Shown here: one piece after another, positions 1,359 through 14,742 of the stretch
How positions within the stretch are numbered: position 1 is the first letter of the stretch
Layout of the letters: every line of letters starts with the position of its first letter
NCBI RefSeq assembly: GCF_964246335.1
Contig: NZ_CAXTQF010000029.1
Location: 15,128 to 39,127, forward strand
From: an uncultured Jatrophihabitans sp.
GTDB taxonomy: Bacteria > Actinomycetota > Actinomycetes > Mycobacteriales > Jatrophihabitantaceae
Reading direction: 5' to 3'
DNA length: 24,000 nucleotides
Notes under the pieces: generated by a model
Told to the model about the DNA's origin: nothing
Database searches by the model: none
Seen by the model: only the letters and a program-made list of their open reading frames with translations
Program-made: the position numbers and the translations under genes

Positions 1359-3077
<1,719 letters not shown>

Positions 3078-4106
3078 TCAGGGAACGAGAATCGCCCGGC
3101 CGCGGACCTCGCCCGCGTCGAGGTCGTGCAGCGCCTCCTGGGCGGCGTCGAGCGGGTAGGTCTTCGTGTGCAGCGTGACCTTGCCGGCCTGGGCGAGCAC
3201 CATCAGCTCGGCCAGCTCGTTGTAGGTGCCGACGATGTTGCCGATCACGTTGCGTTCGGTGCTGACGACGTCGAGCGTCGGGACGTGCAGCTCGCCGCCG
3301 TAGCCGATGACGTAGTACGAGCCGCCCGGACGGGTCATCGCCCAGCCGTCGCGTTCCGCACCCTCCTCGGCGACGAAGTCGAACACCACGTCGGCGCCGG
3401 CACCGTCGGTCAGCTGCAGCACCGCGTCGACGTGCTTGCCGTCGGCCACCACGGTCTGGTTCGCGCCGAGCGACTCGGCCAGTTTGAGCGCAGCGGGATT
3501 GCGGTCGACGACGATGATGTTGGTCGCGGTCAGCGCGGTCAGGCACTGCACGCCGATGTGGCCGAGGCCGCCGGCCCCGATCACCACCGCGGTCGTCCCC
3601 GGATAGAGCAGCGGCACCGCCTTGCGCACCGCGTGGTAGGCGGTGATGCCGGCGTCGGCCAGCGCGGCGAGGGCGTTCGGCTGCGTCGACGGGGCGAGCT
3701 TGATGCACGCGCGCGCCGACGTGAGCAGGTACTCGGCCATCCCGCCGTCGGTGCCGTCCAGGCCGGGGAAGACGCTGAGTTCGCAGTGCATGTCCTGCCC
3801 GGCGCGGCACGCGCGGCACAGCCCGCAGGTCGGCGTCGGGTGCAGGATGACGGTGTCGCCGACCGCGACGTTGGTGACCGCCGAGCCGACCTCGTGCACC
3901 CAGCCGGCGTTCTCGTGCCCGATCGTGTACGGCAGGGTCGGGTGCATCGCCTCGTCCCACTGGCCGAGGATGATGTGCAGGTCGGTGCGGCACACACCGG
4001 CGCCACCGATCTTCACGACGACGTCCGTCGGCCCCTTGACGGTCGGCTCGTCCACCTCGTCGACGGTGGGTTGTTCGTTGTAGGCGTGCAACCGGACGGC
4101 CTTCAT
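3078..4106 (-). CDS. Zn-dependent medium-chain alcohol dehydrogenase (likely secondary-alcohol/2-propanol dehydrogenase)
   Basis: 342 aa. Catalytic Zn motifs GVCRTDLH and GHENAG. Structural Zn cluster CGLCRACRAGQDMHC (C-x2-C-x2-C-x7-C). NAD fold GAGGLG. The start ATG shares one nt with the upstream stop (TGATG at 4104..4108). Confidence 0.9.
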   Translation of the reverse strand: MKAVRLHAYNEQPTVDEVDEPTVKGPTDVVVKIGGAGVCRTDLHIILGQWDEAMHPTLPYTIGHENAGWVHEVGSAVTNVAVGDTVILHPTPTCGLCRACRAGQDMHCELSVFPGLDGTDGGMAEYLLTSARACIKLAPSTQPNALAALADAGITAYHAVRKAVPLLYPGTTAVVIGAGGLGHIGVQCLTALTATNIIVVDRNPAALKLAESLGANQTVVADGKHVDAVLQLTDGAGADVVFDFVAEEGAERDGWAMTRPGGSYYVIGYGGELHVPTLDVVSTERNVIGNIVGTYNELAELMVLAQAGKVTLHTKTYPLDAAQEALHDLDAGEVRGRAILVP

Positions 4107-4828
4107 CAGTCATCTCCTTCGGGGTCCACGGGCAGGCCGTAACGGTTGGCGAGCATGCCTTTGCACACGTGGCCGTTGGCCTCGAGGTTGACCCGCGTGA
4201 GCCGCGCCTTGCCCAGGTGCAGCCGCAGGTCGTCGGGTGCGACGGCCGCGCCGGTCCGCACGTCGATCAGCAGCGGCGCGTCGTCGCCGGCCGGTAGCCC
4301 GAGCTGGGCACGGCGTGCGCGCAGCCGGTCGACGTCGTCGCTGTGCGGCAGGTCGGCCAACGTCAACGTGGCCAGCTCGGCCGGCGTGCGGCGCAGCTGC
4401 CGAACGACGCGGTCGGTGCCGGCCAGGACGGCTTTGCGGACGAAGTCCGCGCGCAGCGTGTCCAACTCACCGTCGGCCAGGCTGCCGAACGACTCGACGA
4501 AGCCGGCACGCGCGGCGACGCCGGCATTGATGTCGGTCGAGGCGAAGTGGTCGTCGAGCAGCACCACCGCCCGCGTCACGCCGGGCACCGCGGCCACCGC
4601 TTCGTAGGCATCGGCCACCATCAGGAACGCGAAGTTCGGCGCACAGAAGTACGTCGGCAGTCGCAGATGCACCTCGGCGACGCCGTCGTCGCCGACCTCG
4701 CAGGAGGCGACGAAACCCAGTGACGTCACCGGCTCGTCGATCTCCGGGTCGATCACGGAGTCGAGAGCGCGCAGCACCAGGGAGCGCGCCGGCAGTGCCA
4801 GCACGCTCCCCTGGTTGGGCTGCGTCAT
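4106..4828 (-). CDS. DUF59 (MIP18/PaaD-like, Fe-S/metallocentre-assembly family) domain protein with an uncharacterised C-terminal half
   Basis: I trimmed the 453-aa track ORF to the ATG at 4828 (MTQPNQGSVL...), giving 240 aa. That ATG overlaps the amidohydrolase stop (ATGA). The N-terminal LDSVIDPEIDEPVTSLGFV ... LRLPTYFCAPNF is typical DUF59. I do not recognise the C-terminal roughly 140 aa. Confidence 0.75.
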   Translation of the reverse strand: MTQPNQGSVLALPARSLVLRALDSVIDPEIDEPVTSLGFVASCEVGDDGVAEVHLRLPTYFCAPNFAFLMVADAYEAVAAVPGVTRAVVLLDDHFASTDINAGVAARAGFVESFGSLADGELDTLRADFVRKAVLAGTDRVVRQLRRTPAELATLTLADLPHSDDVDRLRARRAQLGLPAGDDAPLLIDVRTGAAVAPDDLRLHLGKARLTRVNLEANGHVCKGMLANRYGLPVDPEGDD

Positions 4829-5874
4829 GCCTGGCCTTGGACGAGCTCCGCGTCGTCGCGCCTCGCGGGCTCGCTCTGGTCGGCGATCTGGCACTCGGCC
4901 GGGACGTCGATGTCGTAGAGCTTGGCCGCGTTGAGGCCGAGAATCTTCTTCTTGGTGTCGACGTTGACCCGCGGGTAGTCGGAGAACTCGTCGCTCGGGT
5001 AGTCCCAGTCGACGAACCCCTCGACCTGCCACTTCGGTTCCCAGATGCCGTAGTCGCTGCCGAAGGTCATCTTGTCCTCGCCGACCCAGAACAGCAGCTC
5101 GCCCATCACCTTCGCGAAGAACTTCGGCCGGGCGTACATCAGGCCACCGATGACGACCGAGAGGCCCGCGTAGACGTTGGGCTCCTGCGTCGCCATGAAG
5201 CAGAAGTCCTCGATGCGCGGCAGGCCGACGTGTTCGACGATGAAGTTCAGTTCGGGGAAGTCGGTGGCCGCGTGATCGACGTCGGACACGTCGAAAGCGT
5301 CCTTGTCCAACGGCCAGATCGTCGGGCCCTTGTGCACGTGGACGTTCTTGATCCCCAGCTCTCGGGCCTTGTCCAAGAACCGGTAGCAGTCGGGGTCGCT
5401 GAGCTTGTAGCCGCGCGAACCGTTGTTCCACTCGGCGGTGTAGAGCTTGATCCCCTTGGCGTTCCACCGCTTGACGTTGTCGGCGAACTCCTTCAGGCCG
5501 CTGTCACCGTCACGCGGGTCGAACCGGGTGTTGACGATGAACTTGCCCGGGTACTTCTCGGCCAGCGCGCCGTTCTTCTCGGTGGTGTTGAAGCCTTCCG
5601 AGTACCACTCCTTGAGGTACGTCGGCTGGAAGACCGCGACGTCGACGTGCCCCTTGTCGAACACGTCGCTCATCAGGTCGTCCTCGGAGTACCCCTCGAA
5701 GTGCTCGATCGACCAGTGCGTCTCGGGCGGCCCGAGCGACTGGTAGGCGTGGAAGCATTCGATCCACCCCTTGGCGTACTGCTCCTGGCCCTTGACCCAG
5801 TTCTCCGGTGTGGCGTCCCAGAAGTGCATGTGGCTGTCGACCACGAAGTACTTCTCGCCGTCCTTCTCGTACAC
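4825..5874 (-). CDS. Amidohydrolase-2 family metal-dependent hydrolase (TIM barrel)
   Basis: 349 aa. N-terminal VVDSHMHFW (HxH metal motif). GTG start at 5874 is preceded by AGGAG plus 6 nt. It sits at the conserved position after the coupling protein in prm/mim-type clusters. Confidence 0.8.
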   Translation of the reverse strand: MYEKDGEKYFVVDSHMHFWDATPENWVKGQEQYAKGWIECFHAYQSLGPPETHWSIEHFEGYSEDDLMSDVFDKGHVDVAVFQPTYLKEWYSEGFNTTEKNGALAEKYPGKFIVNTRFDPRDGDSGLKEFADNVKRWNAKGIKLYTAEWNNGSRGYKLSDPDCYRFLDKARELGIKNVHVHKGPTIWPLDKDAFDVSDVDHAATDFPELNFIVEHVGLPRIEDFCFMATQEPNVYAGLSVVIGGLMYARPKFFAKVMGELLFWVGEDKMTFGSDYGIWEPKWQVEGFVDWDYPSDEFSDYPRVNVDTKKKILGLNAAKLYDIDVPAECQIADQSEPARRDDAELVQGQA

Positions 5875-5912
5875 GTACGTCTCCTCACTTGCGCCGCAGC
5901 GCAGATGGACGG

Positions 5913-6287
5913 TCAGCGGGCCTTGAGGTCGAACCCGAGATATTCGGCTGCTTCCTCCGGGTTCGAGAACATGATCGTTCTGTCGTCCAGGTGGACCATG
6001 CGGCCGTAGTGCGTCGACATGTTGTTCTCGAACTCCGAGGCGCTGAAGAAGCCCTCTTCCTCACCGAGCGCCGCGTCCATGTCGTCGTAGACGACGTCGA
6101 AACGGCCGACCCCGTCGACGCGGATCATCGACGGCAGCGGCGTGACCGTCACGTTGTCGATGCGCGACAGCACCTTCGCCATCACGGCGCCGATCTGGTT
6201 GTTCATCAGCGTGAAGCCGCACATGTTCGAGAACGTCTTGTCGGACTTGAACGGGCTCTCGCTCGTCTTGAACCTGGTTTCGGTCAC
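5913..6287 (-). CDS. mimD: SDIMO coupling/effector protein (MmoB/DmpM family)
   Basis: The track ORF (216 aa) has an Arg/Gly-rich, non-coding-looking N-terminus. I call the GTG at 6287 (VTETRFKTSESPF...), which overlaps the small-subunit stop (GTGA), giving 124 aa. Size and position match the fourth gene of mimABCD/prmABCD. The start is less certain; an alternative ATG lies at MCGFTLMNN. Confidence 0.75.
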   Translation of the reverse strand: MTETRFKTSESPFKSDKTFSNMCGFTLMNNQIGAVMAKVLSRIDNVTVTPLPSMIRVDGVGRFDVVYDDMDAALGEEEGFFSASEFENNMSTHYGRMVHLDDRTIMFSNPEEAAEYLGFDLKAR

Positions 6288-7453
6288 TGCGACAGCTCCT
6301 TCGGCGACTTCAGGGACAGGTCGGACAGGATCTCGGCGAACCGGCTCTTGGCCCGGTCGAGGCCATCCTCGAACCGCGGCGCCTTGGCGTCCGGCTGCGA
6401 CCAGATGGGTTGTAGCCGGCGCGCAGCCGCGATGGAGCGTTCCGTCCACTTCGACAGCCAGCCGTCCAGGATCGACTTGTTGTGCTCGGCGAACTCCTTG
6501 TCGTTCGTCAGCAGCTCGAACATCGCCTTCGTGTACCGCAGGTCGCGCTCGGCGTAGTCCCACTCGCCCGCGCCGACGACCGTCGGCGTCACGTAGTCGC
6601 CGTTGCGCGGCGCGGCCTGCTGCACCAGGTTGCTGCGGAGGAGCTCACCCACTAGCGGCTCGAACACGACGTTGACCGCGAACACGGCTTCGCACCAGTC
6701 GTCGATGCAAGTTATCTGCTCGGCGACCTCACGCACGCCCTGCCAGGCGTCGTCGCTGTTCCACGTCTCGACGTGCGCCGAGCCGTCGAAGCCCTCGATC
6801 TCCTCGCTGAGCGTGAGGTTGTAGAGCGCGAGGTCCTGGGCGAAGCGGATCCGGTGCATGCTGTTCACCGAGATCGCGTTGTTGTGCATGTTCGTGGGCG
6901 CCCGCCGGTTGGCGTTCGCGAACACGTACAGCCCGAAACCGTGATCGACGTGCATCCAGGCGCCGACGTTGCGCTCGACGAACGTCACCCAGTTCGGGCT
7001 CCACTGGCTGAACGCCTTGGTCTGGCGCGCGGTCTCCACGTTCTGGTTGATCTGCCGCACGACGTTGGAGTTGTAGCGGTAGAAGGTGAGTTCCCACTCC
7101 TCGTTCGGGTCGCGGAACTCGTGCCACCCGTGGGCCGGCCAGTCGTAACCCTTGCCGCCCGATCCCGGGTAGCGCTCGGGTTCGGGACGGTCACTGCCCC
7201 AGGCCTTGAGCGCCGTCCAGTCGAGCGGGTAACCGCCGCGGCCGTCGGAGAAGCCGTAGATCCACCCCTGGGACAGGTAGTGGCGCGGGTCGGGCTGGAC
7301 CTCGACAGTGACGTCCTCGTAGTGCGACTGACGCCGCTTCGCCGGGGTGAAGTAGTTGTAGCTGCGCGCGGTCGAGTCCGGGAACTCCTTGGCGCCTGCC
7401 TCGGCGTCGGTGAATTCCGGTCTCGGTGCGCTGCGTTCCGTGGTCTCGGTCAT
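6284..7453 (-). CDS. mimC: SDIMO hydroxylase small (beta) subunit
   Basis: I trimmed the 484-aa track ORF to the ATG at 7453 (MTETTERSAPRPEF...), which is 2 nt after the reductase stop, giving 389 aa. It is the third gene in the large subunit, reductase, small subunit, coupling protein order diagnostic of propane/acetone-type SDIMOs. Confidence 0.85.
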   Translation of the reverse strand: MTETTERSAPRPEFTDAEAGAKEFPDSTARSYNYFTPAKRRQSHYEDVTVEVQPDPRHYLSQGWIYGFSDGRGGYPLDWTALKAWGSDRPEPERYPGSGGKGYDWPAHGWHEFRDPNEEWELTFYRYNSNVVRQINQNVETARQTKAFSQWSPNWVTFVERNVGAWMHVDHGFGLYVFANANRRAPTNMHNNAISVNSMHRIRFAQDLALYNLTLSEEIEGFDGSAHVETWNSDDAWQGVREVAEQITCIDDWCEAVFAVNVVFEPLVGELLRSNLVQQAAPRNGDYVTPTVVGAGEWDYAERDLRYTKAMFELLTNDKEFAEHNKSILDGWLSKWTERSIAAARRLQPIWSQPDAKAPRFEDGLDRAKSRFAEILSDLSLKSPKELSQ

Positions 7454-7455
7454 GG

Positions 7456-8502
7456 CTACTCTCTCCCCGGGTCGCCGGTTGTGGTGAATTTGTCGTAGTA
7501 GATGTGTTTCTCGTCCGCGCCCAGCGCGACGAGTGCTTCCATCGCCGCCTCGACCATCGGCGGCGGCCCGCAGACGTAGCAGTCGGCGGCGGACAGGTCG
7601 GTCTCGTTCTTGCTCATCACGTCGGTGATCAGCCCGGTCTCGCCGTCCCACCCGTCGCCCTCGTGATCGGACAACGCAGGGACGAAGCGGAAGTTCGCCA
7701 ACTGGCCCTGCAGGTTCGCCAGCTCCTCGGTGAAGCACAGATCGGGGACCTGTCGGGCGCCGTAGTAGTAGGTCGCCTTGCGGGTGCTGCCCCGCTCGGC
7801 CAACGAGCGCAGCACCGACAGGATCGGCGCCATCCCGGCGCCGCCGCCGAGGAACACCATGTCCGAGTCGCGCCCGTCGCGCAGGGTGAAGACGCCGAAC
7901 GGGCCGGTCAGCTCGAGGACGTCACCGACCTTGAGCTGCGTGTCGAGATATCCGGAGAACAGGCCGCCCGGGTAGATGCGGATGACGAACTCGAGTTCGG
8001 TGCCGCCGGAAGACGGGGTGTTGGCAACGGAGAACGAGCGGGTCTCGTCGGTGCCGGGAACGGTGAAGTCCCAGTACTGGCCGGCGAAGAAGTTGACGCT
8101 CTCCGGCTCGACGATCTTCACCTTGACGTGTCGCATGTCGCGGGTGACGGGATCCACCGAGACGACTTCGGCCTTGGCCCGCTGGATGGGGTGCCCGGAC
8201 CGGATCATCTCCTCGTCGTAGTTGAGCAGCTCGATCGTCACGTCCTCGTAGACGTGCGCCCGGCACAGCAGCGTGAAGCCCTCGTCCTTCTCGAAGTCGG
8301 GCAGCGCGAAGGTGGAGTACTTGTCGAGCTCGATGTCGTCGCCGTCGAGGACGAAGGACTTGCAGGAGGCGCACTGCCCTTCCTTGCAGCCGTGCATGAG
8401 CATGATGCCCTGCTCGGTAGCGGCGCGCAGCACGTTCTGTTCCTCGTCGACCTCGATCTCGATGCCGACGGGCTCGAAGCGTACTGAGTGCTTGTCAGCC
8501 AA
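7456..8502 (-). CDS. mimB: SDIMO NADH oxidoreductase (plant-type 2Fe-2S ferredoxin plus FNR-like FAD/NAD domain)
   Basis: 348 aa. 2Fe-2S ligands CKEGQCASC (C-x4-C-x2-C) plus a later LLCRAH. FAD motif RSFSVAN. NAD motif GGGAGMAP. The start is TTG at 8502, with AGGAG 7 nt upstream. Confidence 0.9.
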   Translation of the reverse strand: MADKHSVRFEPVGIEIEVDEEQNVLRAATEQGIMLMHGCKEGQCASCKSFVLDGDDIELDKYSTFALPDFEKDEGFTLLCRAHVYEDVTIELLNYDEEMIRSGHPIQRAKAEVVSVDPVTRDMRHVKVKIVEPESVNFFAGQYWDFTVPGTDETRSFSVANTPSSGGTELEFVIRIYPGGLFSGYLDTQLKVGDVLELTGPFGVFTLRDGRDSDMVFLGGGAGMAPILSVLRSLAERGSTRKATYYYGARQVPDLCFTEELANLQGQLANFRFVPALSDHEGDGWDGETGLITDVMSKNETDLSAADCYVCGPPPMVEAAMEALVALGADEKHIYYDKFTTTGDPGRE

Positions 8503-8540
8503 AACCTCGCTCCTCGCTCGTCGTCGTGATCTGGTCCGAA

Positions 8541-8573
8541 GGAGGAGGCCCGGTGTTGCACCGGGCCTCCTCC
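8541..8573 (-). promoter_or_regulatory. Perfect 15-bp GC-rich stem-loop in the mimA-mimB intercistronic spacer
   Basis: GGAGGAGGCCCGGTG (8541..8555), loop TTG, CACCGGGCCTCCTCC (8559..8573), with perfect complementarity. It lies in the 91-nt gap between the mimA stop (8594) and the mimB start (8502). No clear U-tract follows on the transcribed strand. Confidence 0.6.
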
Positions 8574-8593
8574 GGAGTGCGGTCTGTTCCTCC

Positions 8594-10246
8594 TCAGGCG
8601 TCGGCAGGCGCCGGGCGGCCGGCGGGACCCTGCTTGACGTAGTCGGCGTGGTACGCCTTCTGCTCGTCCGCGCTCATCTCGTTGAGCAGCACGTTCGGGC
8701 TCTGCAGCGGCGGGCACCGGCGCAGGTGGTCGAGCGTCCACATCTTCTTCGGGTCCAGATTCAGGTGCGGCTGTGCCGTGAGCGTCTTGCCGTCGTCGCG
8801 CACGTAGCCCATGTCGGAGACGACGTCGGCCCAGTTCCAGCCGTGGTAGAGCGTCTCCCACTCGCGCTTGCCGATCAGCTGACCCATGTTCGGCGTATCG
8901 CGACCCTCGTACGTGGGCCGGAACGCGACGGTGTCCGTCCACCGGCAGGCCTCGTGGCAGTAGGTGCGCATCTGCCCGTCGACCTCGGCCATGACCATGT
9001 CCTCACGGACCAGGCAGGGCACCATGCAGGTCCAGCACCGGGCCGGGTAGACGTAGTCGACGTCCTCGAGCGCGATCGGGTTGTGCCCGTTCGCGACCGA
9101 CAGGCGGGCGTAGTTCTCCCACCAGGCGCCGTACTTGTCGTACCAGCCCGGGTACTTGTACTCGAACCACTCGAAGTCCTCGTCGGTCATCGGGTCGATG
9201 CGCCAGTAGTTGGCGAGCCACCCGGTGGCGAAGAACTGCGCGACCTCGTGCACGTAGCCCTTGTTCCAGATCTGGTTCCACGACTCTTCGATCAGGTCGT
9301 GCGGGATCTCCAGGCCGTACTTCTCCAGCGGGACGAGGTAGCTGCGGTAGTAGTCGTCGTAGATCCACCGACGCCACATCTCCGCATAGCTCTCCCGATC
9401 CTTGCGGCGGTCCTTCGTGCCGTACTCGATGAAGGTGCCGATCGCGGCGTCCACGACCCGGTGGTTGTTCCACCACGCGTAACGCAGGTCGCGGGCCAGC
9501 AGCTGGTGGTTGCTCTCGTCCGACAGTGCCATCAGCAGCGTCGCGTACCCGTTGCTGATGTGCCGCGACTCGTCCGACTGCACGGAGTGGAACACCGTCG
9601 GCAACAGGTAGTCACCGTTGGCGGCCGCCTCGGCCGGCATCGCGACGAACAGCGTGTTCGTGAACGCCGTCTCGGCGACGATGGTCAAGTAGATGCTCGC
9701 GGCGGTGATCGCATCGCCGGTGATGAAGCCCTCCGCGAACTGCCGCCCGATGGTGCCGCAGTAGTCGTTTTGGAAGTTCTTCAGGCTGCTGTTGAAGCCG
9801 GCCGGGTCGATGTAGTTGTTCATGTACAGGCGCTTGAGGTTCTGCTGGATCGTCGAGTGGCGAACCTCGTCGATCATCTGGATCGCCTGCCCGTTGTGCA
9901 GCTCCGGGTTCGGCACCGTGTTGAACAGCAGCGGCATCGCGCGCGCCGCGGAGATCTCCGGCAACGGGATGATCGACAGGAACAGCTTCTGCCATTCCAG
10001 CCACCGCTCCTGCACCTGGCGGAACATGTTGCCGCGAATCGCGCCGTCGGATGCCCCGTAAACGCGGTGGTCCTTCTCCTCCTCCATCGGGAAGTAGGAC
10101 CGCAACACCTGCTTGAGCGGGTCCTTCTTCTTCGCCTTCTGGAAGGTGTAGTCGGTGCCGTACTGCGAGACCGGCGTGTGGTACAGCGGATCCCAGGACA
10201 GCTCCTGGATCTTTTCGTGGGCCTTGGCCACGCTCTGACGACTCAT
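8594..10246 (-). CDS. mimA: SDIMO hydroxylase large (alpha) subunit, propane/acetone/phenol monooxygenase type
   Basis: I trimmed the track ORF to the ATG at 10246 ([13 protein letters not shown]...), with GAGGAG 7 nt upstream, giving 550 aa. Both di-iron ExxH motifs are present (MIDEVRHST and [11 protein letters not shown]). From memory, the sequence is close to the MimA/PrmA large subunits of Mycolicibacterium, Rhodococcus and Gordonia. Confidence 0.93.
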
Positions 10247-10312
10247 TGCCACACTCCTCGGGTAGACAGGTGCGTCATCTGGCAATCAGACCCGGCCGCG
10301 GACGGTCGCCAA

Positions 10313-10327
10313 GTCTCAGTACGAGAC
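10313..10327. promoter_or_regulatory. Dyad GTCTC-AGTAC-GAGAC (copy 1 of a recurrent 15-bp operator-like motif)
   Basis: Perfect 5-bp arms. It lies 16 nt after the orf94 stop and 67..81 nt upstream of the mimA ATG. Confidence 0.55.
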
Positions 10328-10343
10328 ACCTGTCGTCGAGGCA

Positions 10344-10628
10344 TCACGCCTCGGTCCCGCGCTCGAAGACGACGGCGCGGATCTCGTCGAGATCCCTGCG
10401 CACCTGACGCATCACCTCGCGGTTGCCCTCGGCGAGTGGCTCGATCCCGAGTGAGCGCAGCAGCGCCCGAGCCGGCTCGGCGGGATCGCCGGCCTCGCCG
10501 AGGACCGGGTGCAACCCCTCGTCGGCGAGCTGCGCGAACACCGTGTGGACCACTGTCCACGGGTTGTACGTCTCGACATCCGATTCGTCGGCCGGCAAGT
10601 TGCTCAGCTGACTGTCCCCGACTCGCAC
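10344..10628 (-). CDS. Hypothetical acidic 94-aa protein between the regulator and mimA
   Basis: The reading frame has a strong GC3 bias (for example CTC GAC GAG ATC CGC GCC GTC GTC TTC GAG). The track start is TTG at 10649, but GGAGG plus 7 nt precedes the GTG at 10628, which I prefer. I recognise no family. Confidence 0.55.
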   Translation of the reverse strand: MRVGDSQLSNLPADESDVETYNPWTVVHTVFAQLADEGLHPVLGEAGDPAEPARALLRSLGIEPLAEGNREVMRQVRRDLDEIRAVVFERGTEA

Positions 10629-10695
10629 GCGCTCACCTCCGGACAGCAATACCTCGGACGTGCGTCCGGTGACTGGTCGACCGGCCGCACCTGCC

Positions 10696-10724: not shown

Positions 10725-10739
10725 GTCTCAATTTGAGAC
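10725..10739. promoter_or_regulatory. Dyad GTCTCAA-T-TTGAGAC (copy 2, perfect 7-1-7 palindrome)
   Basis: Located in the divergent intergenic region, about 97 nt upstream of the orf94 GTG (10628) and 136 nt upstream of the mimR ATG (10875). Confidence 0.6.
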
Positions 10740-10874: not shown

Positions 10875-12662
10875 ATGACTGGTCCGCCTATTCCGTCGCT
10901 GACGCCCGACGCCGGCGGAGTGGCAGCGAACCGGCTGCGCTTCCTGACCGACGACGGCCGCCCCGAGCGGGTACGACCGCTGATCCTGGCGTCGTGGCGG
11001 CGGTCCCGGAACTTCTCGGTCGCGCCGGACTCGCTGGAACTGCCCTACCGCGCCGACCTCCAGATCGACACGCCGCTCGTGCGCAGCGCACAGCCGGTGC
11101 TGGCCCGGCTCGCCGAACAGCTCAGCGGCCAGCCCATCAGCATCGTCCTCACCGACGCCGCCGGCCTCGTGCTCAGCCGCCGCAGCGGCACCGCTGAACT
11201 GGAGCGATACCTCGACAGCGTCCGACTCGCGCCCGGATTCAATTACGCCGAGGAATTCGTCGGCACCAACGGAATCGGTACCGCGTTGGAGGCCGGTTCG
11301 GCGGCCGAGGTCTTCGGCCACGAGCACTACGCCGAGGACCTGGAGCGGCTGGCGTGCGCCGGCGTGCCGATCCACGACCCGATCAGCGGGCGGCTGCTCG
11401 GGGTCATCGACCTCACGTGCTGGCGAAAAGACGCCGAGTCACTGCTGTTGACGCTGGCCACCTCGACGGCCGACCAGATCAAGCACGCCCTGGTGGAGTC
11501 GTCGAGCGCTCGTGAGTTCGAGGTGCTGCGGGCATACCGGCAGACCTGTCGGCGCACCAACGGCATCGTGTTCGCCGTCACCAACGACGCAATGATGCTC
11601 AACAGCTACGCGCAGGCCGAGCTCGACCCGGCCGACCAGGCGGCGTTGCAGACGATGGCCGGTGAGACGGCGTCGTCGGCCCTGGCCGGCCGGCGGCACT
11701 CACTCTCCCTTGTGCTGCCGAGCGGCGCTGCGGCGCAGCTGTACTGCCAGCAGGTCGATTACGACGGTGCGCCGGCCGGTCTGGTCGTCCACGTCAAGCT
11801 CGTCCAGGACGCCGGTGCGCCGACCGGGATGGCCGACGCCTCGATGTCGGTGCCCGGTCTGGTCGGCGACACGTCGTCGTGGCGACGGGTCTGTCGGCAG
11901 GTGCAGGAAGCGATGAACGCGCGCAGCTGGCTGATGCTCGAGGGTGAGGTCGGTACCGGCAAGGTCGCGTTGCTGCGCGGGGTCCAGGTGCGCCGGCAGC
12001 CGCCCGCGCGCAGCGTCGTGCTCGACGCCGCGGACGTGGGGCCCGGTTGGATGGACGAGGCACGGCGCGCCGTCGCCGCGAACGACACCGTCATCTTCGC
12101 GCACGTCGACCAGCTCAATCCCGCTCGCGTTCGCGCACTGCACGCGCTGCTCGACGACACCCGGCGTGATCCCGAACGCCGTGACCTGTGGGTGGCCGCG
12201 ACCTGTCGACCCGGCGCCGGGGACGACGCGCTGGCCCGGTTGATGCCGTTCTTCCCCACCACCCTGGCCGTGCCGCCGCTGCGCCTGCACATCGACGACC
12301 TGCCGGGCCTGGTCACCTTCTTCCTCGGCAAGCTGGGTTCCGGCGGCAATGTGCAGCTCGCCCCCGCCGCCCTGCGCGTGCTCATGCGCTCACCGTGGCC
12401 CGGCAACGTCCGTCAGCTGCAGCAGCTTGTCCACGACCTGTTGCAGCACCGGCGATCCGGGGTGGTCGGCGTCGAGGACCTGCCGCCGGAGATGCATTCC
12501 ATCAGCCGGCGAGTGCTGTCCACGCTCGAGCAGATGGAACGGGACGCGATCGTGCGCAGCCTCACCGACGCCAGGGGCAACAAGGTGCAGGCCGCGCGAT
12601 CGCTGGGCATGTCCCGCGCGACGATCTACCGCAAGATCCACGAATTCGGCATCGTCCTGTAA
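10875..12662 (+). CDS. mimR: NtrC/AcoR-family transcriptional activator (GAF sensor, degenerate AAA+, Fis-type HTH), MimR-like
   Basis: 595 aa. AcoR-type GAF block: GTNGIGTALE...VFGHEHY...CAGVPIHDPISGRLLGVIDLT. Walker-A-like GEVGTGK. Conserved PPLRLHIDDLP and WPGNVRQL. C-terminal HTH_8: MERDAIVRSLTDARGNKVQAARSLGMSRATIYRKI. It is divergent from the SDIMO operon. GGAGG lies upstream of the ATG. Confidence 0.88.
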   Translation: MTGPPIPSLTPDAGGVAANRLRFLTDDGRPERVRPLILASWRRSRNFSVAPDSLELPYRADLQIDTPLVRSAQPVLARLAEQLSGQPISIVLTDAAGLVLSRRSGTAELERYLDSVRLAPGFNYAEEFVGTNGIGTALEAGSAAEVFGHEHYAEDLERLACAGVPIHDPISGRLLGVIDLTCWRKDAESLLLTLATSTADQIKHALVESSSAREFEVLRAYRQTCRRTNGIVFAVTNDAMMLNSYAQAELDPADQAALQTMAGETASSALAGRRHSLSLVLPSGAAAQLYCQQVDYDGAPAGLVVHVKLVQDAGAPTGMADASMSVPGLVGDTSSWRRVCRQVQEAMNARSWLMLEGEVGTGKVALLRGVQVRRQPPARSVVLDAADVGPGWMDEARRAVAANDTVIFAHVDQLNPARVRALHALLDDTRRDPERRDLWVAATCRPGAGDDALARLMPFFPTTLAVPPLRLHIDDLPGLVTFFLGKLGSGGNVQLAPAALRVLMRSPWPGNVRQLQQLVHDLLQHRRSGVVGVEDLPPEMHSISRRVLSTLEQMERDAIVRSLTDARGNKVQAARSLGMSRATIYRKIHEFGIVL

Positions 12663-12680: not shown

Positions 12681-12890
12681 TCAGGTCGCGAGCAGGCAGA
12701 CCCCGCTGATCGCGACGAGGGCCGACGCGAGCTGCACGCCCCGGGTATGGGCTTGCAGCCAGCGCACGTGCGGCCGGTGACAGGCCGGGATGAGCCGGGG
12801 GTCCACGTGGTGGACGGCGACGCTCCACGACCACTGCACCAACGACACGAGCGCGGCCACCGCGAGCAGCGCCACCGCGGTCTGTGACAT
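12681..12890 (-). CDS. Hypothetical 69-aa two-helix membrane peptide
   Basis: ATG at 12890 with GGAG 7 nt upstream. GC3-rich codons throughout. Two hydrophobic segments (AVALLAVAALVSLV and LASALVAISGVCLLA). No recognisable family. Confidence 0.45.
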   Translation of the reverse strand: MSQTAVALLAVAALVSLVQWSWSVAVHHVDPRLIPACHRPHVRWLQAHTRGVQLASALVAISGVCLLAT

Positions 12891-12958: not shown

Positions 12959-12973
12959 GTCTCAGTCTGAGAC
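12959..12973. promoter_or_regulatory. Dyad GTCTCAG-T-CTGAGAC (copy 3, perfect 7-1-7 palindrome)
   Basis: It lies 7 nt after the stop of the SatP-like gene and 69 nt upstream of the 69-aa ORF start. A 1-nt loop makes an RNA hairpin implausible, so a protein-binding dyad is more likely. Confidence 0.55.
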
Positions 12974-12980
12974 CGGCCGG

Positions 12981-13664
12981 TCAGTGCACAACGGGTCGGC
13001 CGAGCGCCAACGCTTTGCCGCCGGTAGCCACCGACGAAACACCCATGTAGAGGTAGACGCCCACTGCGGCGAACGCGAAGGCGACTATGCCGGCGATCTT
13101 GGACCATGTGCTCGAGGCGTTGACGGTCGAGATGAGCACGCACACGAGGCATGCCTCGACCAGCACGAACAGCAGCGTGAACGCGAACGGCAGACGCAGG
13201 GTGGCCAGGGTCAGCATGCCGATGATGACCAGCCAGGTGATCAGGAACGCCGCCTGCGTGTGCAGCGCCGCGTTCGGCGTGATTGCGAACCAGTTGTGCG
13301 TGAGCCCGAGCACGAGGGCGGCGTAGCTGAGCCAGAAACCGGAGAAGATGCCGAAGATGCTCGCGACCGCGCTCTGCCCGAGGGCTGCCGCCCACACCGT
13401 GCTGACCGCGAGACCGAATCCCGTCGCCGTCGCGATGATCGGCATCGACGAGCCGAGGCCGCCGGTCGGGACGTAGCCCACCAGCACCAGCGCGAGGGCA
13501 ACAGTGCCTGCGACGAAGACCGGCAGGCCGAGGGCCGCGGGATTGCCGGACAGGAACGGTGGGGTCGGATCGGGTGCGGGCGCCTCGGCGGTCGGGGTGG
13601 GCCTGCGTTCGGTGGCGATGTGGTCGCCGGAGGCGCCTTCGACGCCTGCGTGGGTTGCAGTCAT
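12981..13664 (-). CDS. GPR1/FUN34/YaaH-family (SatP/AceTr-type) acetate/succinate channel homologue
   Basis: I trimmed the track ORF to the ATG at 13664 (MTATHAG...), with GAGGAG upstream, giving 227 aa. Family signature NPAALGL (consensus NPAPLGL) is followed by six hydrophobic helices. Confidence 0.8.
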   Translation of the reverse strand: MTATHAGVEGASGDHIATERRPTPTAEAPAPDPTPPFLSGNPAALGLPVFVAGTVALALVLVGYVPTGGLGSSMPIIATATGFGLAVSTVWAAALGQSAVASIFGIFSGFWLSYAALVLGLTHNWFAITPNAALHTQAAFLITWLVIIGMLTLATLRLPFAFTLLFVLVEACLVCVLISTVNASSTWSKIAGIVAFAFAAVGVYLYMGVSSVATGGKALALGRPVVH

Positions 13665-13739: not shown

Positions 13740-13754
13740 GTCTCACTCTGGGAC
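13740..13754. promoter_or_regulatory. Dyad GTCTC-ACTCT-GGGAC (copy 4, one mismatch), overlapping the palindrome GGGACGTCCC (13750..13759)
   Basis: Seen directly in the SatP-like/BLUF divergent intergenic region. Confidence 0.35.
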
Positions 13755-13787: not shown

Positions 13788-13802
13788 GTCTCAATCCGAG
13801 AC
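13788..13802. promoter_or_regulatory. Dyad GTCTC-AATCC-GAGAC (copy 5, perfect; arms extend to ACGTCTC/GAGACGT at 13786..13804)
   Basis: It lies 124 nt upstream of the SatP-like ATG (13664) and 126 nt upstream of the BLUF ATG (13928). Confidence 0.6.
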
Positions 13803-13830: not shown

Positions 13831-13845
13831 GTCGCAGAGTGAGAC
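13831..13845. promoter_or_regulatory. Dyad GTCGC-AGAGT-GAGAC (copy 6, one mismatch)
   Basis: Its centre is 43 bp from the centre of copy 5, in the same intergenic region and 83 nt upstream of the BLUF ATG. Confidence 0.35.
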
Positions 13846-13927
13846 CGCAGATCCCGCCGGTGCGCGGACGATGAGCGCGCAGGCCGTGGGTTGGTCCATC
13901 GAGTTCTTCGCATGAGGAGGCACCCGG

Positions 13928-14377
13928 ATGAGCAGTGACGGATTGCAGGGCCCCGCGTTCCGCCTCATGTACCGCAGCCACAGTCTGATCCCGGCCGAGT
14001 CGAGCAAGGCCGAGCTCGGCGCGCTGTTCTCGGTCGCGCGATCGAACAACAAGAAGCTCGGGATCACCGGCGCCCTGATGCTGGACGCGGAGTGGTTCGT
14101 GCAGACGCTGGAGGGCGACGAGGCTGCCGTGCGCTCGCTGTTCGAACGCATCAGCACCGATCCCCGGCACGACGACGTCGCCGTGCTCGACACCGCAACG
14201 GTGCCCGCCCGCGCGTTCCCGCACTGGTCGATGGCGCAGGTGTCCACCGCCGGCAAGGACGACGTCTATCTCATCGCGCACGAGGACGGCATCGCGCCGG
14301 CGACCCCGCGGCGACGCAGTCCGGAGCAGGACGCAGCGCTCGACACCATGCGCGCAGCGGTGAGCGCGCAGGTCTAG
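13928..14377 (+). CDS. Short stand-alone BLUF-domain (blue-light sensor using FAD) protein
   Basis: 149 aa. ATG is preceded by GAGGAGG plus 7 nt. BLUF hallmarks: LMYRS (Tyr15), SNNKKLGITGAL (Asn40/41), FVQTLEG (Gln59), DPRH, and FPHWSM (Trp100, Met102). The Gln-to-Met spacing of 43 matches what I recall for AppA. Confidence 0.85.
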   Translation: MSSDGLQGPAFRLMYRSHSLIPAESSKAELGALFSVARSNNKKLGITGALMLDAEWFVQTLEGDEAAVRSLFERISTDPRHDDVAVLDTATVPARAFPHWSMAQVSTAGKDDVYLIAHEDGIAPATPRRRSPEQDAALDTMRAAVSAQV

Positions 14378-14401: not shown

Positions 14402-14572
14402 TTACTCGGTGGCGCCGTGGCCGAGGCCGTCCGGGTCGGCGTCCTCGGCGATGCCATCCACCTCGCTGTGGTGTTGGTCGGCCGCCGCCGCCGCTTGCTC
14501 ACCCGACGCGTCGTTGGGGTCGACGTCCGGCATCGGCTGGAACATGTCGGGGGCGTCCTCGATGTCGGGCAT
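14402..14572 (-). CDS. Hypothetical 56-aa highly acidic protein
   Basis: ATG at 14572 (MPDIEDAPDMFQPMPDVDPNDASGEQ...) with GGAG 6 nt upstream. The GC3 bias is consistent with coding. No family recognised. Confidence 0.35.
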   Translation of the reverse strand: MPDIEDAPDMFQPMPDVDPNDASGEQAAAAADQHHSEVDGIAEDADPDGLGHGATE

Positions 14573-14668
14573 GGCATCTCCAGGTGCGACTGGCTGGATG
14601 GTTCGCCTCATCGTGTGCGGCAGGGTCTGCTGCGGACGTGTCACTTTGCGACACAAGGAACGTCTGGG

Positions 14669-14742
14669 AGCCGCCTGTCGGAGTCGAACCGACGACCTGC
14701 CGCTTACAAGGCGGCTGCTCTGACCAACTGAGCTAAGGCGGC
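14669..14742 (-). tRNA. tRNA-Thr (anticodon UGU)
   Basis: The reverse complement folds as a canonical 74-nt cloverleaf: acceptor GCCGCCT/AGGCGGC, D arm GCTC..GAGC, anticodon stem GCCGC/GCGGC with loop CTTGTAA, variable AGGTC, T arm GTCGG-TTCGACT-CCGAC, discriminator T. CCA is not exactly encoded; the genomic sequence continues CCCA. Confidence 0.93.

What the first reader, a model, noticed from the sequence alone, without database searches (positions are those of the whole stretch)
13928..14377. Stand-alone BLUF photoreceptor embedded in a hydrocarbon/ketone-oxidation locus of an actinobacterium
The 149-aa ORF retains every residue of the BLUF photocycle that I can align: Tyr15, Asn40/41, Gln59, Trp100 and Met102. 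It has no output domain, so it must signal through a protein partner, as short BLUF proteins such as PixD, BlsA or PapB do. It shares an intergenic control region and the dyad motif with the SDIMO-associated genes. Its nearest regulator is an AAA+/HTH activator whose ATPase module looks inactive. A light input into expression or activity of a flavin/di-iron, ROS-prone monooxygenase pathway is plausible, but I am not aware that it has been described. BLUF proteins are best characterised in Proteobacteria and Cyanobacteria. I cannot verify their frequency in Actinobacteria from here.
Basis: partly seen in the sequence, partly recalled or inferred. Interest (0 to 1): 0.7.

Follow-up and report, generated by a model that had tools for sequence, protein, structure and literature searches.

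The report
Blue-light sensor wired into acetone/propane oxidation regulon
A small blue-light sensor gene in a soil actinobacterium sits beside, and appears to be switched on by the same DNA control element as, the genes that oxidise acetone and propane, which suggests an undescribed and testable link between light and this metabolism.

Summary
ORF 13928-14377 (+) is a real stand-alone BLUF protein (Pfam E 5e-27), with Tyr15, Asn40/41, Gln59, Trp100 and Met102 in place. It lies next to a complete mim-type di-iron monooxygenase cluster, a MimR-type regulator and a YaaH transporter gene, in an uncultured Jatrophihabitans.

The link to the cluster is more than adjacency:
- **Operator.** The dyad GTCTCA-N3-TGAGAC lies in the mimR-mimA intergenic region of 74 of 80 independent mim loci.
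- **BLUF promoter.** A near-identical dyad (GTC[G/C]CAAANTGAGAC) lies 50-240 bp upstream of the BLUF gene in 61 of 80 homologous loci (about 0.5 expected). A -10-like hexamer follows at the same 22-nt spacing as at mimA.
- **Gene linkage.** Eleven of 80 BLUF loci carry a mim cluster within 10 kb, in at least four arrangements and seven or more BLUF clades. In one Hyphomicrobiaceae operon BLUF is the last gene.
- **Reverse view.** Only 1 of 80 mimA loci has BLUF beside it, so BLUF is an optional accessory.

Best reading: a photoreceptor co-induced with the MimR regulon that gives it a light input, probably through a protein partner (MimR is the leading candidate). Photochemistry, MimR binding to the dyad and the partner are all untested. 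It is a new variant of a known kind, of moderately high interest.

The parts
13928..14377 (+). Short BLUF photoreceptor gene (149 aa): BLUF core at residues 11-103, then a conserved C-terminal module (LIAHxDGIxPA hairpin 113-124, helix 132-146)
13914..13920 (+). Ribosome-binding site GAGGAGG, 7 nt before the ATG
   Evidence: read from the sequence
13831..13845 (+). BLUF-proximal dyad GTCGCAGAGTGAGAC, with the perfect half-site towards BLUF; inferred MimR-type operator centred near -42
   Evidence: the same sequence lies upstream of BLUF in L057 and L161
13867..13872 (+). Predicted -10-like hexamer GACGAT, 21 nt after the dyad end (inferred)
   Evidence: spacing statistics; sequence
13788..13802 (.). 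Central exact dyad GTCTCAATCCGAGAC in the yaaH-BLUF divergent region
13740..13754 (-). yaaH-proximal dyad; it reads GTCCCAGAGTGAGAC towards yaaH
   Evidence: orientation read from the sequence
12981..13664 (-). GPR1/FUN34/YaaH-family (acetate-type) transporter gene; likely ATG at 13664 with RBS GAGGAG
   Evidence: a YaaH gene accompanies the mim locus in 19 of 80 mimA loci
12959..12973 (-). Exact dyad GTCTCAGTCTGAGAC, 69 nt upstream of a 69-aa membrane-like ORF
12681..12890 (-). 69-aa ORF that looks like a two-span membrane protein (judged by eye from the translation), downstream of yaaH; status uncertain
   Evidence: no Pfam hit
10875..12662 (+). MimR-type regulator: GAF, degenerate AAA+ (Walker A only), AAA_lid_14 and HTH_8; DhaR-like
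   Evidence: its homologue in L161 carries the Pfam MimR_N/MimR labels
10725..10739 (.). Exact dyad GTCTCAATTTGAGAC, distal site in the mimR-mimA region
10344..10649 (-). Small conserved ORF (101 aa) between mimR and mimA, itself preceded by a dyad
10313..10327 (.). Exact dyad GTCTCAGTACGAGAC, mimA-proximal operator
1359..10285 (-). mim-type SDIMO cluster: large subunit 8594-10285, reductase 7456-8502, small subunit (ORF 6284-7738), MmoB-like coupling protein (ORF 5913-6563), amidohydrolase 4825-5874, DUF59 protein (ORF 4106-5467), Zn-ADH 3078-4106, GroEL-like chaperonin 1359-3050
14667..14742 (-). tRNA-Thr (TGT), 290 bp downstream of BLUF; marks the end of the block

Best explanation
The ORF encodes a genuine short BLUF blue-light photoreceptor that belongs to the regulon of the MimR-type activator controlling the acetone/propane (mim-type) soluble di-iron monooxygenase. 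It is transcribed from its own promoter. In that promoter a MimR-type dyad (GTCGCAGAGTGAGAC) overlaps the -35 region, about 42 nt upstream of the predicted start, which is the same geometry as at mimA. The sensor would therefore be made only when the pathway is induced. Once made, it most probably passes a blue-light signal to the pathway through protein-protein contact, using its conserved C-terminal hairpin/helix module. The most likely target is the DhaR-like sensory N-terminus of MimR, which would give a light-gated feedback on expression of a flavin and di-iron enzyme that is prone to making reactive oxygen species. Shown: the domain, its key residues, the predicted fold, the conserved dyad and its spacing, and the recurrent gene linkage. 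Inferred: that MimR binds the dyad, that the site activates transcription, that flavin is bound and photocycles, the identity of the partner, and the sign of the effect.
For: The BLUF domain and its residues are confirmed, as is the predicted fold. The exact dyad is in the mimR-mimA intergenic region of 74 of 80 metagenomic mim loci, with position 4 a T in 94-100% of sites. MimR is the only regulator gene found alongside most of these loci. A dyad with at most 1 mismatch lies within about 250 bp upstream of BLUF in 52 of 69 loci not linked to SDIMO genes and in 9 of 11 linked loci. The background is 0.006 per 300 bp, and the flanking DNA is not conserved. Both promoter sets place a -10-like hexamer ending in T at +28 after the dyad: mimA has T+23 97%, A+27 89% and T+28 97%; BLUF has T+28 68% and G+29 76%. 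In L039, L040 and L060 the ATG falls at the predicted transcription start, which implies leaderless mRNA. A 'G at position 4' variant also precedes another gene of the mim locus, the small ORF in L096 and L116, and yaaH in the window has the comparable C-at-position-4 variant. A mim cluster lies within 10 kb in 11 of 80 BLUF loci, about 1.3 Mb of flank in all, where at most about 0.3 would be expected by my estimate. The arrangements differ: downstream of mimR, convergent with mimR, after groEL and Nramp, and beside mimA. The linked BLUFs fall in at least 7 separate clades of the tree. In L076 (Hyphomicrobiaceae) the BLUF ATG lies 13 bp after the groEL-like stop codon, as the last gene of an SDIMO operon that is only 36-52% identical. 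MimR is the most widely shared non-syntenic neighbour within 2 kb, and no other conserved small partner is found. In L161 the mimR ORF reads through the dyad into BLUF. MimR's best named relative is DhaR (below the family cutoff), an activator that is controlled by small protein partners (my own knowledge: Baechler et al. 2005, EMBO J). No paper in the searchable library links BLUF to mim, prm or SDIMO genes.
Against: From the mimA side, BLUF is adjacent in only 1 of 80 loci, and that copy is a partial match. So most mim systems work without a linked BLUF. Whether genomes with an unlinked BLUF carry a mim cluster at all could not be checked. The BLUF dyad differs systematically from the core operator (G or C instead of T at position 4, and an A-rich centre), so a MimR paralogue or another regulator could be the binder. 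No experiment or publication available here defines the MimR operator. Some family members lack the dyad: a Pseudonocardia subgroup, the Lapillicoccus paralogues and all the Alphaproteobacteria. Nothing here tests flavin binding, the photocycle or any interaction.
Confidence: 0.6

Rival explanations
1. The BLUF protein does serve the mim system, but it acts after translation on the enzyme machinery (the FAD/2Fe-2S reductase, the hydroxylase, or the GroEL-like assembly chaperonin) rather than on MimR. For example, it could throttle NADH-driven turnover in light.
For: In L076 BLUF is the last gene of the structural operon, directly after the groEL-like gene. In L034 and L038 it lies at the groEL end, after an Nramp metal-transporter gene. 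Co-induction with the enzymes fits a stoichiometric partner.
Against: In about 9 of the 13 linked loci (window included) BLUF is next to, or one gene from, mimR rather than the structural genes. I know of no BLUF protein that regulates an oxygenase directly. This was not tested here.
Confidence: 0.2
2. The BLUF protein is a general-purpose light sensor with no specific tie to the monooxygenase. Its upstream dyad would then be the operator of a different regulator (a MimR paralogue or an unknown factor), and the proximity to mim genes would be hitch-hiking on a shared island.
For: Position 4 and the centre of the dyad differ consistently between BLUF sites and the core mim operators. Of the BLUF loci, 86% are not near a mim cluster, and 79 of 80 mimA loci lack BLUF. 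The mim genes have a lower GC content than their flanks, and a tRNA gene lies next to the block.
Against: The half-site TGAGAC and the spacing from dyad to -10 hexamer are identical. Accessory mim-locus promoters also use dyads with G or C at position 4. Linkage recurs in different arrangements, clades and phyla, far above my estimated expectation of about 0.3. There is an operon fusion in L076.
Confidence: 0.2
3. The protein no longer senses light and works as a flavin-based redox or oxygen sensor for the pathway, or as an inert flavin-binding protein.
For: The pathway is redox-intensive. In a different sensor family, NifL is a flavoprotein anti-activator of a GAF-AAA+ regulator that senses redox state (my own knowledge).
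Against: All photocycle residues (Tyr, Gln, Met, Trp, Asn, Ser) are strictly conserved across the family, which is what selection on photochemistry would produce.
Confidence: 0.07
4. The conserved upstream dyad is an RNA hairpin (a leader or attenuator) rather than a protein-binding DNA site.
For: The perfect versions could form a 6-bp stem.
Against: In the BLUF sites position 4 is G or C while its pairing partner, position 12, stays A. That is a conserved mismatch with no compensating change. In L039, L040 and L060 the dyad lies upstream of the predicted transcription start. Rfam finds nothing there.
Confidence: 0.03

Closest known systems
Short (stand-alone) BLUF photoreceptors: PixD/Slr1694 and TePixD, BlrB, BlsA, PapB
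   Same: A single BLUF domain of about 150 aa with no effector domain, the full Tyr/Gln/Met/Trp/Asn set, and the same predicted core fold (RMSD 1.6-2.8 A over about 100 residues to AppA, BlsA and BlrB). Signalling is expected to go through a protein partner.
   Different: It is only 26-38% identical to them. In the model the C-terminal 45 residues form a beta-hairpin (the conserved LIAHxDGIxPA) plus one helix, not the two-helix cap. Superposition over the full length is poor (RMSD 7-9 A). It comes from Actinomycetota. It has a family-wide conserved upstream operator, which I do not know to have been described for any BLUF gene.
BlsA control of acetoin/butanediol catabolism in Acinetobacter (BlsA with the regulator AcoN; PMC6595428)
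   Same: A short BLUF protein gives a light input to the catabolism of a small ketone, through a transcription regulator of that pathway. The activator of the aco genes (AcoR) belongs to the same broad GAF/AAA+/HTH_8 class as MimR (my own knowledge).
   Different: To my knowledge blsA is not encoded in the aco locus and serves many pathways. Here the sensor gene carries the pathway's own operator and is often adjacent to the regulator. The organisms and the enzymes (a di-iron monooxygenase) are different.
Activators controlled by regulon-encoded protein partners: DhaR with DhaK/DhaL, NifA with NifL, PspF with PspA (my own knowledge)
   Same: MimR has the NifA/DhaR-like layout. Its best NCBIfam match is DhaR and its best solved-structure match is NifA. 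Its AAA+ core is degenerate, as in DhaR. NifL is a flavoprotein sensor that binds its activator. PspA and DhaK/L are encoded in the regulon they control.
   Different: No interaction is shown here. BLUF is unrelated to PAS-FAD NifL, to DhaK/L and to PspA. The signal would be blue light rather than oxygen, substrate state or membrane stress.
MimR/mimABCD acetone- and propane-inducible monooxygenase system of mycobacteria (Furuya et al. 2011, J Bacteriol, my own knowledge; mentioned in PMC8394569)
   Same: The same gene set and order, with a divergent mimR and a GroEL-like chaperonin. The large subunit is 86-96% identical across the actinomycete loci compared.
   Different: I know of no photoreceptor, and no defined operator, reported for that system. 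The dyad GTCTCA-N3-TGAGAC and the accessory regulon members (BLUF, yaaH, a small ORF) are inferred here.

Membership tests
BLUF domain (Pfam PF04940) | Profile match above the curated threshold | tested here: met
   94.2 bits against a cutoff of 25, E 5.3e-27, profile positions 2-92 of 92
BLUF domain (Pfam PF04940) | Photocycle residues: Tyr (AppA Y21), Gln (Q63), Met (M106), Trp (W104) and the flavin-contacting Asn/Ser | tested here: met
   Y15, Q59, M102, W100, N40/N41 and S39, by alignment to BlrB, TePixD and BlrP1. Y15, N41, Q59, W100 and M102 are invariant in 25 homologues
BLUF domain (Pfam PF04940) | Ferredoxin-like beta-alpha-beta-beta-alpha-beta-beta fold | tested here: met
   AF2 model with pLDDT 86.8: E10-19, H23-43, E47-53, E56-63, H65-76, E81-92, E101-104. 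Foldseek probability 1.00 to AppA, BlrB, BlsA and PixD. This is a prediction only
BLUF domain (Pfam PF04940) | Binds FAD/FMN and shows a reversible red shift of about 10 nm in blue light | not testable with these tools
   Needs purified protein and spectroscopy
Short BLUF proteins (PixD/BlrB/BlsA type) | A single BLUF domain with no enzymatic or DNA-binding output domain | tested here: met
   149 aa, and the only significant Pfam hit is BLUF
Short BLUF proteins (PixD/BlrB/BlsA type) | A C-terminal two-helix cap packed on the sheet | tested here: inconclusive
   The model gives a beta-hairpin at 113-124 plus one helix at 132-146. Full-length superpositions have RMSD 7-9 A, against 1.6-2.8 A for the core. 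The sequence aligns to PixD through residue 134
Short BLUF proteins (PixD/BlrB/BlsA type) | Light-dependent binding of a protein partner | not testable with these tools
   MimR is a candidate only by gene neighbourhood
MimR regulon (genes under the mim operator) | The dyad GTCTCA-N3-TGAGAC upstream, at the same distance from a -10-like hexamer as at mimA | tested here: met
   Sites at 13831-13845 (1 mismatch) and 13788-13802 (exact). Found in 61 of 80 family loci. The T at +28 is shared
MimR regulon (genes under the mim operator) | MimR binds the site, and transcription is induced by acetone or propane | not testable with these tools
   No binding-site data were found in the library
MimR/DhaR-like activator (the neighbouring regulator 10875-12662) | GAF-type sensor, AAA+ module and a Fis-type HTH | tested here: met
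   GAF E 1.5e-10, AAA_lid_14 E 1.6e-13, HTH_8 E 5.5e-11. A 47-61% identical homologue class carries the Pfam MimR_N/MimR labels
Sigma-54 enhancer-binding proteins (NtrC family) | A complete Sigma54_activat AAA+ core (Walker B, GAFTGA, arginine finger) | tested here: not met
   Sigma54_activat matches only profile positions 2-42 of 168, E 0.096, below the cutoff. All NCBIfam equivalog scores are far below their cutoffs
mim/prm-type SDIMO gene cluster | Large and small hydroxylase subunits, a reductase and a coupling protein, with amidohydrolase, DUF59, ADH and GroEL-like genes | tested here: met
   Pfam hits in the order given. The same order appears in L034, L039, L047, L051 and L057. Substrate range was not tested

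The most novel reading that the evidence does not exclude
Across soil Actinomycetota, and in at least one Hyphomicrobiaceae, a dedicated short-BLUF subfamily forms a light-gated feedback loop on the MimR regulon. MimR induces the sensor together with the acetone/propane monooxygenase. In blue light the sensor then binds MimR's DhaR-like N-terminus (or the enzyme) to retune the pathway. This would be the first photoreceptor-controlled soluble di-iron monooxygenase system, and the first BLUF family defined by a conserved cis-regulatory signature.
Probability: 0.3. Interest if true: 0.8.

Novelty: new variant of a known kind. Interest (0 to 1): 0.65.

Why it matters
Soluble di-iron monooxygenases of the mim/prm type oxidise propane, acetone, phenol and pollutants such as 1,4-dioxane, and they are abundant in soil actinomycetes. 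I found no report that their expression or activity responds to light. If a BLUF sensor is part of the MimR regulon, removal of volatile organic compounds at soil and leaf surfaces could follow a day-night cycle, and bioremediation or biocatalysis strains could behave differently in light. It would also give Actinomycetota their first BLUF protein with an assignable pathway. The predicted MimR operator (GTCTCA-N3-TGAGAC) can be tested directly and used to map the regulon. Finally, the system may be a compact pair, responsive to both light and inducer, that could be used as a genetic tool in high-GC bacteria.

Tried and rejected
- **Exact-protein contig look-up for the window BLUF:** nothing on record.
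- **Neighbour clustering of all ORFs around the 80 BLUF loci:** the largest clusters came from one syntenic Streptosporangiaceae-like lineage (GST-like, glycogen and nitrile-hydratase genes). I rejected these as shared ancestry rather than functional linkage. No conserved small partner gene was found next to BLUF.
- **First dyad pattern, with N6 spacing:** 0 hits. The correct spacing is N5.
- **Reciprocal scan from mimA:** BLUF is adjacent in only 1 of 80 loci, which rules out BLUF as a core cluster component.
- **yaaH promoters in other mim loci:** they carry only degenerate (2-5 mismatch) versions of the dyad, so dyad control of yaaH is not general.
- **tblastn against plasmids:** only proteobacterial and Bacteroidota BLUFs at 45% identity or less, and no actinobacterial plasmid example.
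- **Other alphaproteobacterial BLUF loci (L068, L074, L075, L080):** no SDIMO genes nearby.
- **Sigma-70 consensus and terminator scans around BLUF:** nothing found.
- **Rfam:** no RNA family in the leader.
- **Literature:** the Furuya 2011 MimR paper is not held. Searches for BLUF with propane, monooxygenase or acetone, and for MimR with acetone, found no relevant link.
- **Not attempted:** a complex prediction of BLUF with MimR. The structure tool takes single chains of window or database sequences only, and only about 9 paired sequences exist.
Full report
**1. What is at the coordinates**

The ORF at 13928-14377 (+) is 149 aa long. It has an ATG start and the Shine-Dalgarno sequence GAGGAGG seven bases upstream. 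It matches Pfam BLUF end to end (E 5.3e-27, 94 bits against a cutoff of 25) and nothing else of significance.

Alignment to the solved proteins BlrB, TePixD and BlrP1 puts Tyr15, Ser39, Asn40/41, Gln59, Trp100 and Met102 at the photocycle and flavin-contact positions. In 25 homologues, Y15, N41, Q59, W100 and M102 are invariant.

An AlphaFold model built on that alignment (pLDDT 86.8) has the canonical beta-alpha-beta-beta-alpha-beta-beta core. The core superposes on AppA, BlsA and BlrB at 1.6-2.8 A. The last 45 residues are predicted as a beta-hairpin plus one helix. The hairpin is the family's most conserved block outside the flavin pocket, LIAHxDGIxPA. This tail does not superpose on the two-helix cap of PixD or BlrB (RMSD 7-9 A over the full length).

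An identical protein is on record as a BLUF protein of an uncultured Jatrophihabitans sp..

**2. The neighbourhood**

Pfam scans give a complete mim/prm-type gene set on the minus strand:

| Gene | Coordinates |
|---|---|
| Hydroxylase large subunit | 8594-10285 |
| Reductase | 7456-8502 |
| Hydroxylase small subunit | ORF 6284-7738 |
| MmoB-like coupling protein | ORF 5913-6563 |
| Amidohydrolase | 4825-5874 |
| DUF59 protein | ORF 4106-5467 |
| Zn-dependent alcohol dehydrogenase | 3078-4106 |
| GroEL-like chaperonin | 1359-3050 |

The rest of the block runs as follows:
- A divergent regulator lies at 10875-12662 (+), with GAF, AAA_lid_14 and HTH_8 domains.
- A YaaH-family transporter gene lies at 12981-13664 (-).
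- The BLUF gene follows.
- A tRNA-Thr gene lies at 14667-14742 (-), followed by unrelated housekeeping genes (PlsC, CysS).

The regulator keeps a Walker A sequence (GEVGTGK), but the rest of the sigma-54 AAA+ core is not recognisable. Sigma54_activat matches profile positions 2-42 of 168 only, at E 0.096. Only the lid and HTH align to solved NtrC-family proteins. Its best named relative is DhaR (far below the family cutoff). A homologue of this regulator class carries the newer Pfam labels MimR_N and MimR.

**3. The dyad is real and is the signature of mim loci**

GTCTC-N5-GAGAC (that is, GTCTCA-N3-TGAGAC) occurs exactly at 10313 and 10725 in the mimA-mimR region, at 12959, and at 13788. It occurs with one mismatch at 13740 and 13831. 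That makes six sites against 1.7 expected, and none of 100 shuffles reaches six.

In 80 mimA loci fetched independently from metagenomes, 74 carry the exact dyad, almost always in the mimR-mimA intergenic region. These sites have a T at position 4 in 94-100% of cases. MimR is the only regulator gene found alongside most of these loci, so I infer that the dyad is its operator. No binding data were available.

**4. The BLUF gene carries its own copy of this operator, family-wide**

I fetched 80 genomic loci encoding homologues that are 49-64% identical. Nearly all are Actinomycetota, with five Alphaproteobacteria.
- A dyad with at most one mismatch lies within about 250 bp upstream of BLUF in 52 of the 69 loci that have no SDIMO genes nearby, and in 9 of the 11 that do.
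- The background rate in the same loci is 0.006 per 300 bp.
- The consensus is GTC[G/C]CAAA[G/C/T]TGAGAC, always with the perfect half-site facing BLUF. The surrounding DNA is not conserved.
- The distance to a -10-like hexamer is the same as at mimA. The last T of the hexamer sits 28 nt after the dyad in both sets: 97% at mimA, and 68% at BLUF followed by GG.
- This places the dyad centre near -42, a typical position for an activator that overlaps the -35 region.
- In L039, L040 and L060 the BLUF ATG falls exactly where transcription is predicted to start, as expected for leaderless actinobacterial mRNAs.

The consistent G or C at position 4, opposite an unchanged A at position 12, argues against an RNA hairpin. 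Rfam finds nothing there. Variants with G or C at position 4 are also used at other accessory promoters inside mim loci: the small conserved ORF in L096 and L116 (G) and yaaH in the window (C; the reverse complement of 13740-13754).

**5. Gene linkage recurs**

Eleven of the 80 BLUF loci have a mim-type cluster within 10 kb. With about 1.3 Mb of flank examined, my estimate of the chance expectation is at most about 0.3. The arrangements differ:

| Arrangement | Loci |
|---|---|
| BLUF just downstream of mimR | L039, L040, L057 |
| yaaH between mimR and BLUF | the window, L051 |
| BLUF convergent with mimR | L047, L061; L052, with a transposase-like ORF inserted and mimR in fragments |
| BLUF after the groEL-like gene and an Nramp gene | L034, L038 |
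| BLUF upstream of mimA, next to an IclR-type gene | L077 |

The linked BLUFs are scattered over at least seven clades of a neighbour-joining tree.

In L076 (Hyphomicrobiaceae) the BLUF ATG lies 13 bp after the stop codon of the groEL-like gene. There it is the last gene of an SDIMO operon whose proteins are only 36-52% identical to those of the window.

One more locus, L161, has a mimR ORF that runs through the dyad into BLUF. The dyad is translated as ...SQSET..., and the gene call is a 771-aa 'fusion'.

Within 2 kb of BLUF, MimR is the most widely shared neighbour outside one syntenic lineage. No conserved small partner gene appears.

**6. The other side of the ledger**

- Starting from mimA, only 1 of 80 loci (L107, a partial match) has BLUF beside mimR, whereas a YaaH gene accompanies the locus in 19. 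BLUF is therefore an optional accessory, not a core part of the cluster.
- Some members lack the dyad: a Pseudonocardia subgroup with a methyltransferase gene directly upstream, the second copies in Lapillicoccus, and all the Alphaproteobacteria.
- The systematic difference at position 4 leaves room for a paralogous regulator.

**7. Mechanism**

Shown by sequence:
- an intact BLUF sensor;
- a promoter built like the mimA promoter;
- recurrent linkage to mimR and the SDIMO genes.

Inferred:
- MimR activates BLUF transcription together with the monooxygenase when acetone, propane or 2-propanol is present.
- The sensor then passes on blue light through its conserved C-terminal module.
- The most probable target is MimR itself. 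There are precedents for activators of this layout being controlled by small, regulon-encoded or flavin-binding partners: DhaR with DhaK/DhaL, NifA with NifL, and PspF with PspA (my own knowledge).
- There is also a precedent for a short BLUF protein controlling ketone catabolism through a pathway regulator: BlsA with AcoN for acetoin (PMC6595428).
- Direct action on the reductase, hydroxylase or chaperonin is the main alternative. The L076 operon and the L034/L038 arrangement favour it.
- The sign of the effect is unknown. One possibility is photoprotective shut-down of a flavin and di-iron enzyme prone to making reactive oxygen species. Another is induction at illuminated surfaces where volatile compounds are available.

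**8. Novelty**

Short BLUF proteins and BLUF control of catabolism are known, so this is not a new kind of system. I found no report of any of the following:
- a BLUF subfamily in Actinomycetota tied to the mim regulon;
- the dyad as a mim operator;
- any photoreceptor associated with a soluble di-iron monooxygenase.

The subfamily is small and tight. It has about 10 cluster representatives at E no more than 1e-30, among about 13,400 BLUF-like representatives. It is nonetheless widespread in soil metagenome-assembled genomes.

I rate it a new variant of a known kind, with interest 0.65. The claim can be tested directly in cultured strains: Blastococcus sp. TF02-09 and Humibacillus sp. DSM 29435 for the linked arrangement, and Kineosporia spp. 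and Pseudonocardia hydrocarbonoxydans for the unlinked one.

Noticed in passing
window 10344-10649 (-); L096 6049-6312 (+); L161 236-535 (-): A small conserved ORF (87-101 aa, with only a weak DUF5319 hit at E 0.0065) lies between mimR and mimA, or downstream of mimR. It has its own mim-type dyad upstream (window 10725-10739; L096 GTCGCAATATGAGAC). It is probably another undescribed member of the regulon.
   Followed up: partly
window 12681-12890 (-) and 12959-12973: A 69-aa ORF that looks like a two-span membrane protein lies just downstream of yaaH, with an exact dyad 69 nt upstream of its start. L114 has a similar dyad downstream of its yaaH gene.
   Followed up: partly
L161 730-3045 (protein P0126): The mimR ORF has no stop codon and reads through the BLUF promoter dyad (translated as ...PSQSET...) into BLUF, giving a 771-aa MimR-BLUF call. 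It could be a natural fusion or a sequencing or assembly artefact. Only one contig of 3.5 kb carries it.
   Followed up: partly
L034 8552-9847; L038 8605-9882: An Nramp (Mn/Fe transporter) gene lies between the GroEL-like end of the mim cluster and BLUF. This may be relevant to iron supply for the di-iron enzyme.
   Followed up: no
L052 10736-12598 and 12582-14356: A transposase-like ORF is inserted between BLUF and mimR, and mimR appears to be split into fragments.
   Followed up: no
L006, L009, L013, L018-L022, L025, L028, L032, L037: about 25-65 nt after the BLUF dyad: A block of about 40 nt (CCAATGAACAAGTATCGGACAAGTCCTGGTGGTGACAC) between the dyad and the BLUF start is strongly conserved in one syntenic lineage, although the upstream DNA differs. 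Its function is unknown.
   Followed up: no
L117 4240-4638: A run of GACTCC-N3-[CGT]GAGAC units spaced 12 or 24 nt apart was picked up by the dyad scan. It is probably a coding tandem repeat unrelated to the operator.
   Followed up: no
window 4500-10500 compared with its flanks; tRNA-Thr 14667-14742: The mim structural genes have 64-66% GC, against 69-72% in the flanks, and the whole mim/mimR/yaaH/BLUF block ends at a tRNA-Thr gene. This is compatible with horizontal acquisition.
   Followed up: no
L034 compared with L065 (same Lapillicoccus MAG, ant_bin.464): The MAG has two BLUF paralogues. The copy next to the mim cluster has the dyad, and the unlinked copy does not.
   Followed up: partly
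window 14402-14656 (-): An 84-aa, very acidic ORF is convergent with BLUF, between BLUF and the tRNA gene. Whether it is a real gene was not assessed.
   Followed up: no
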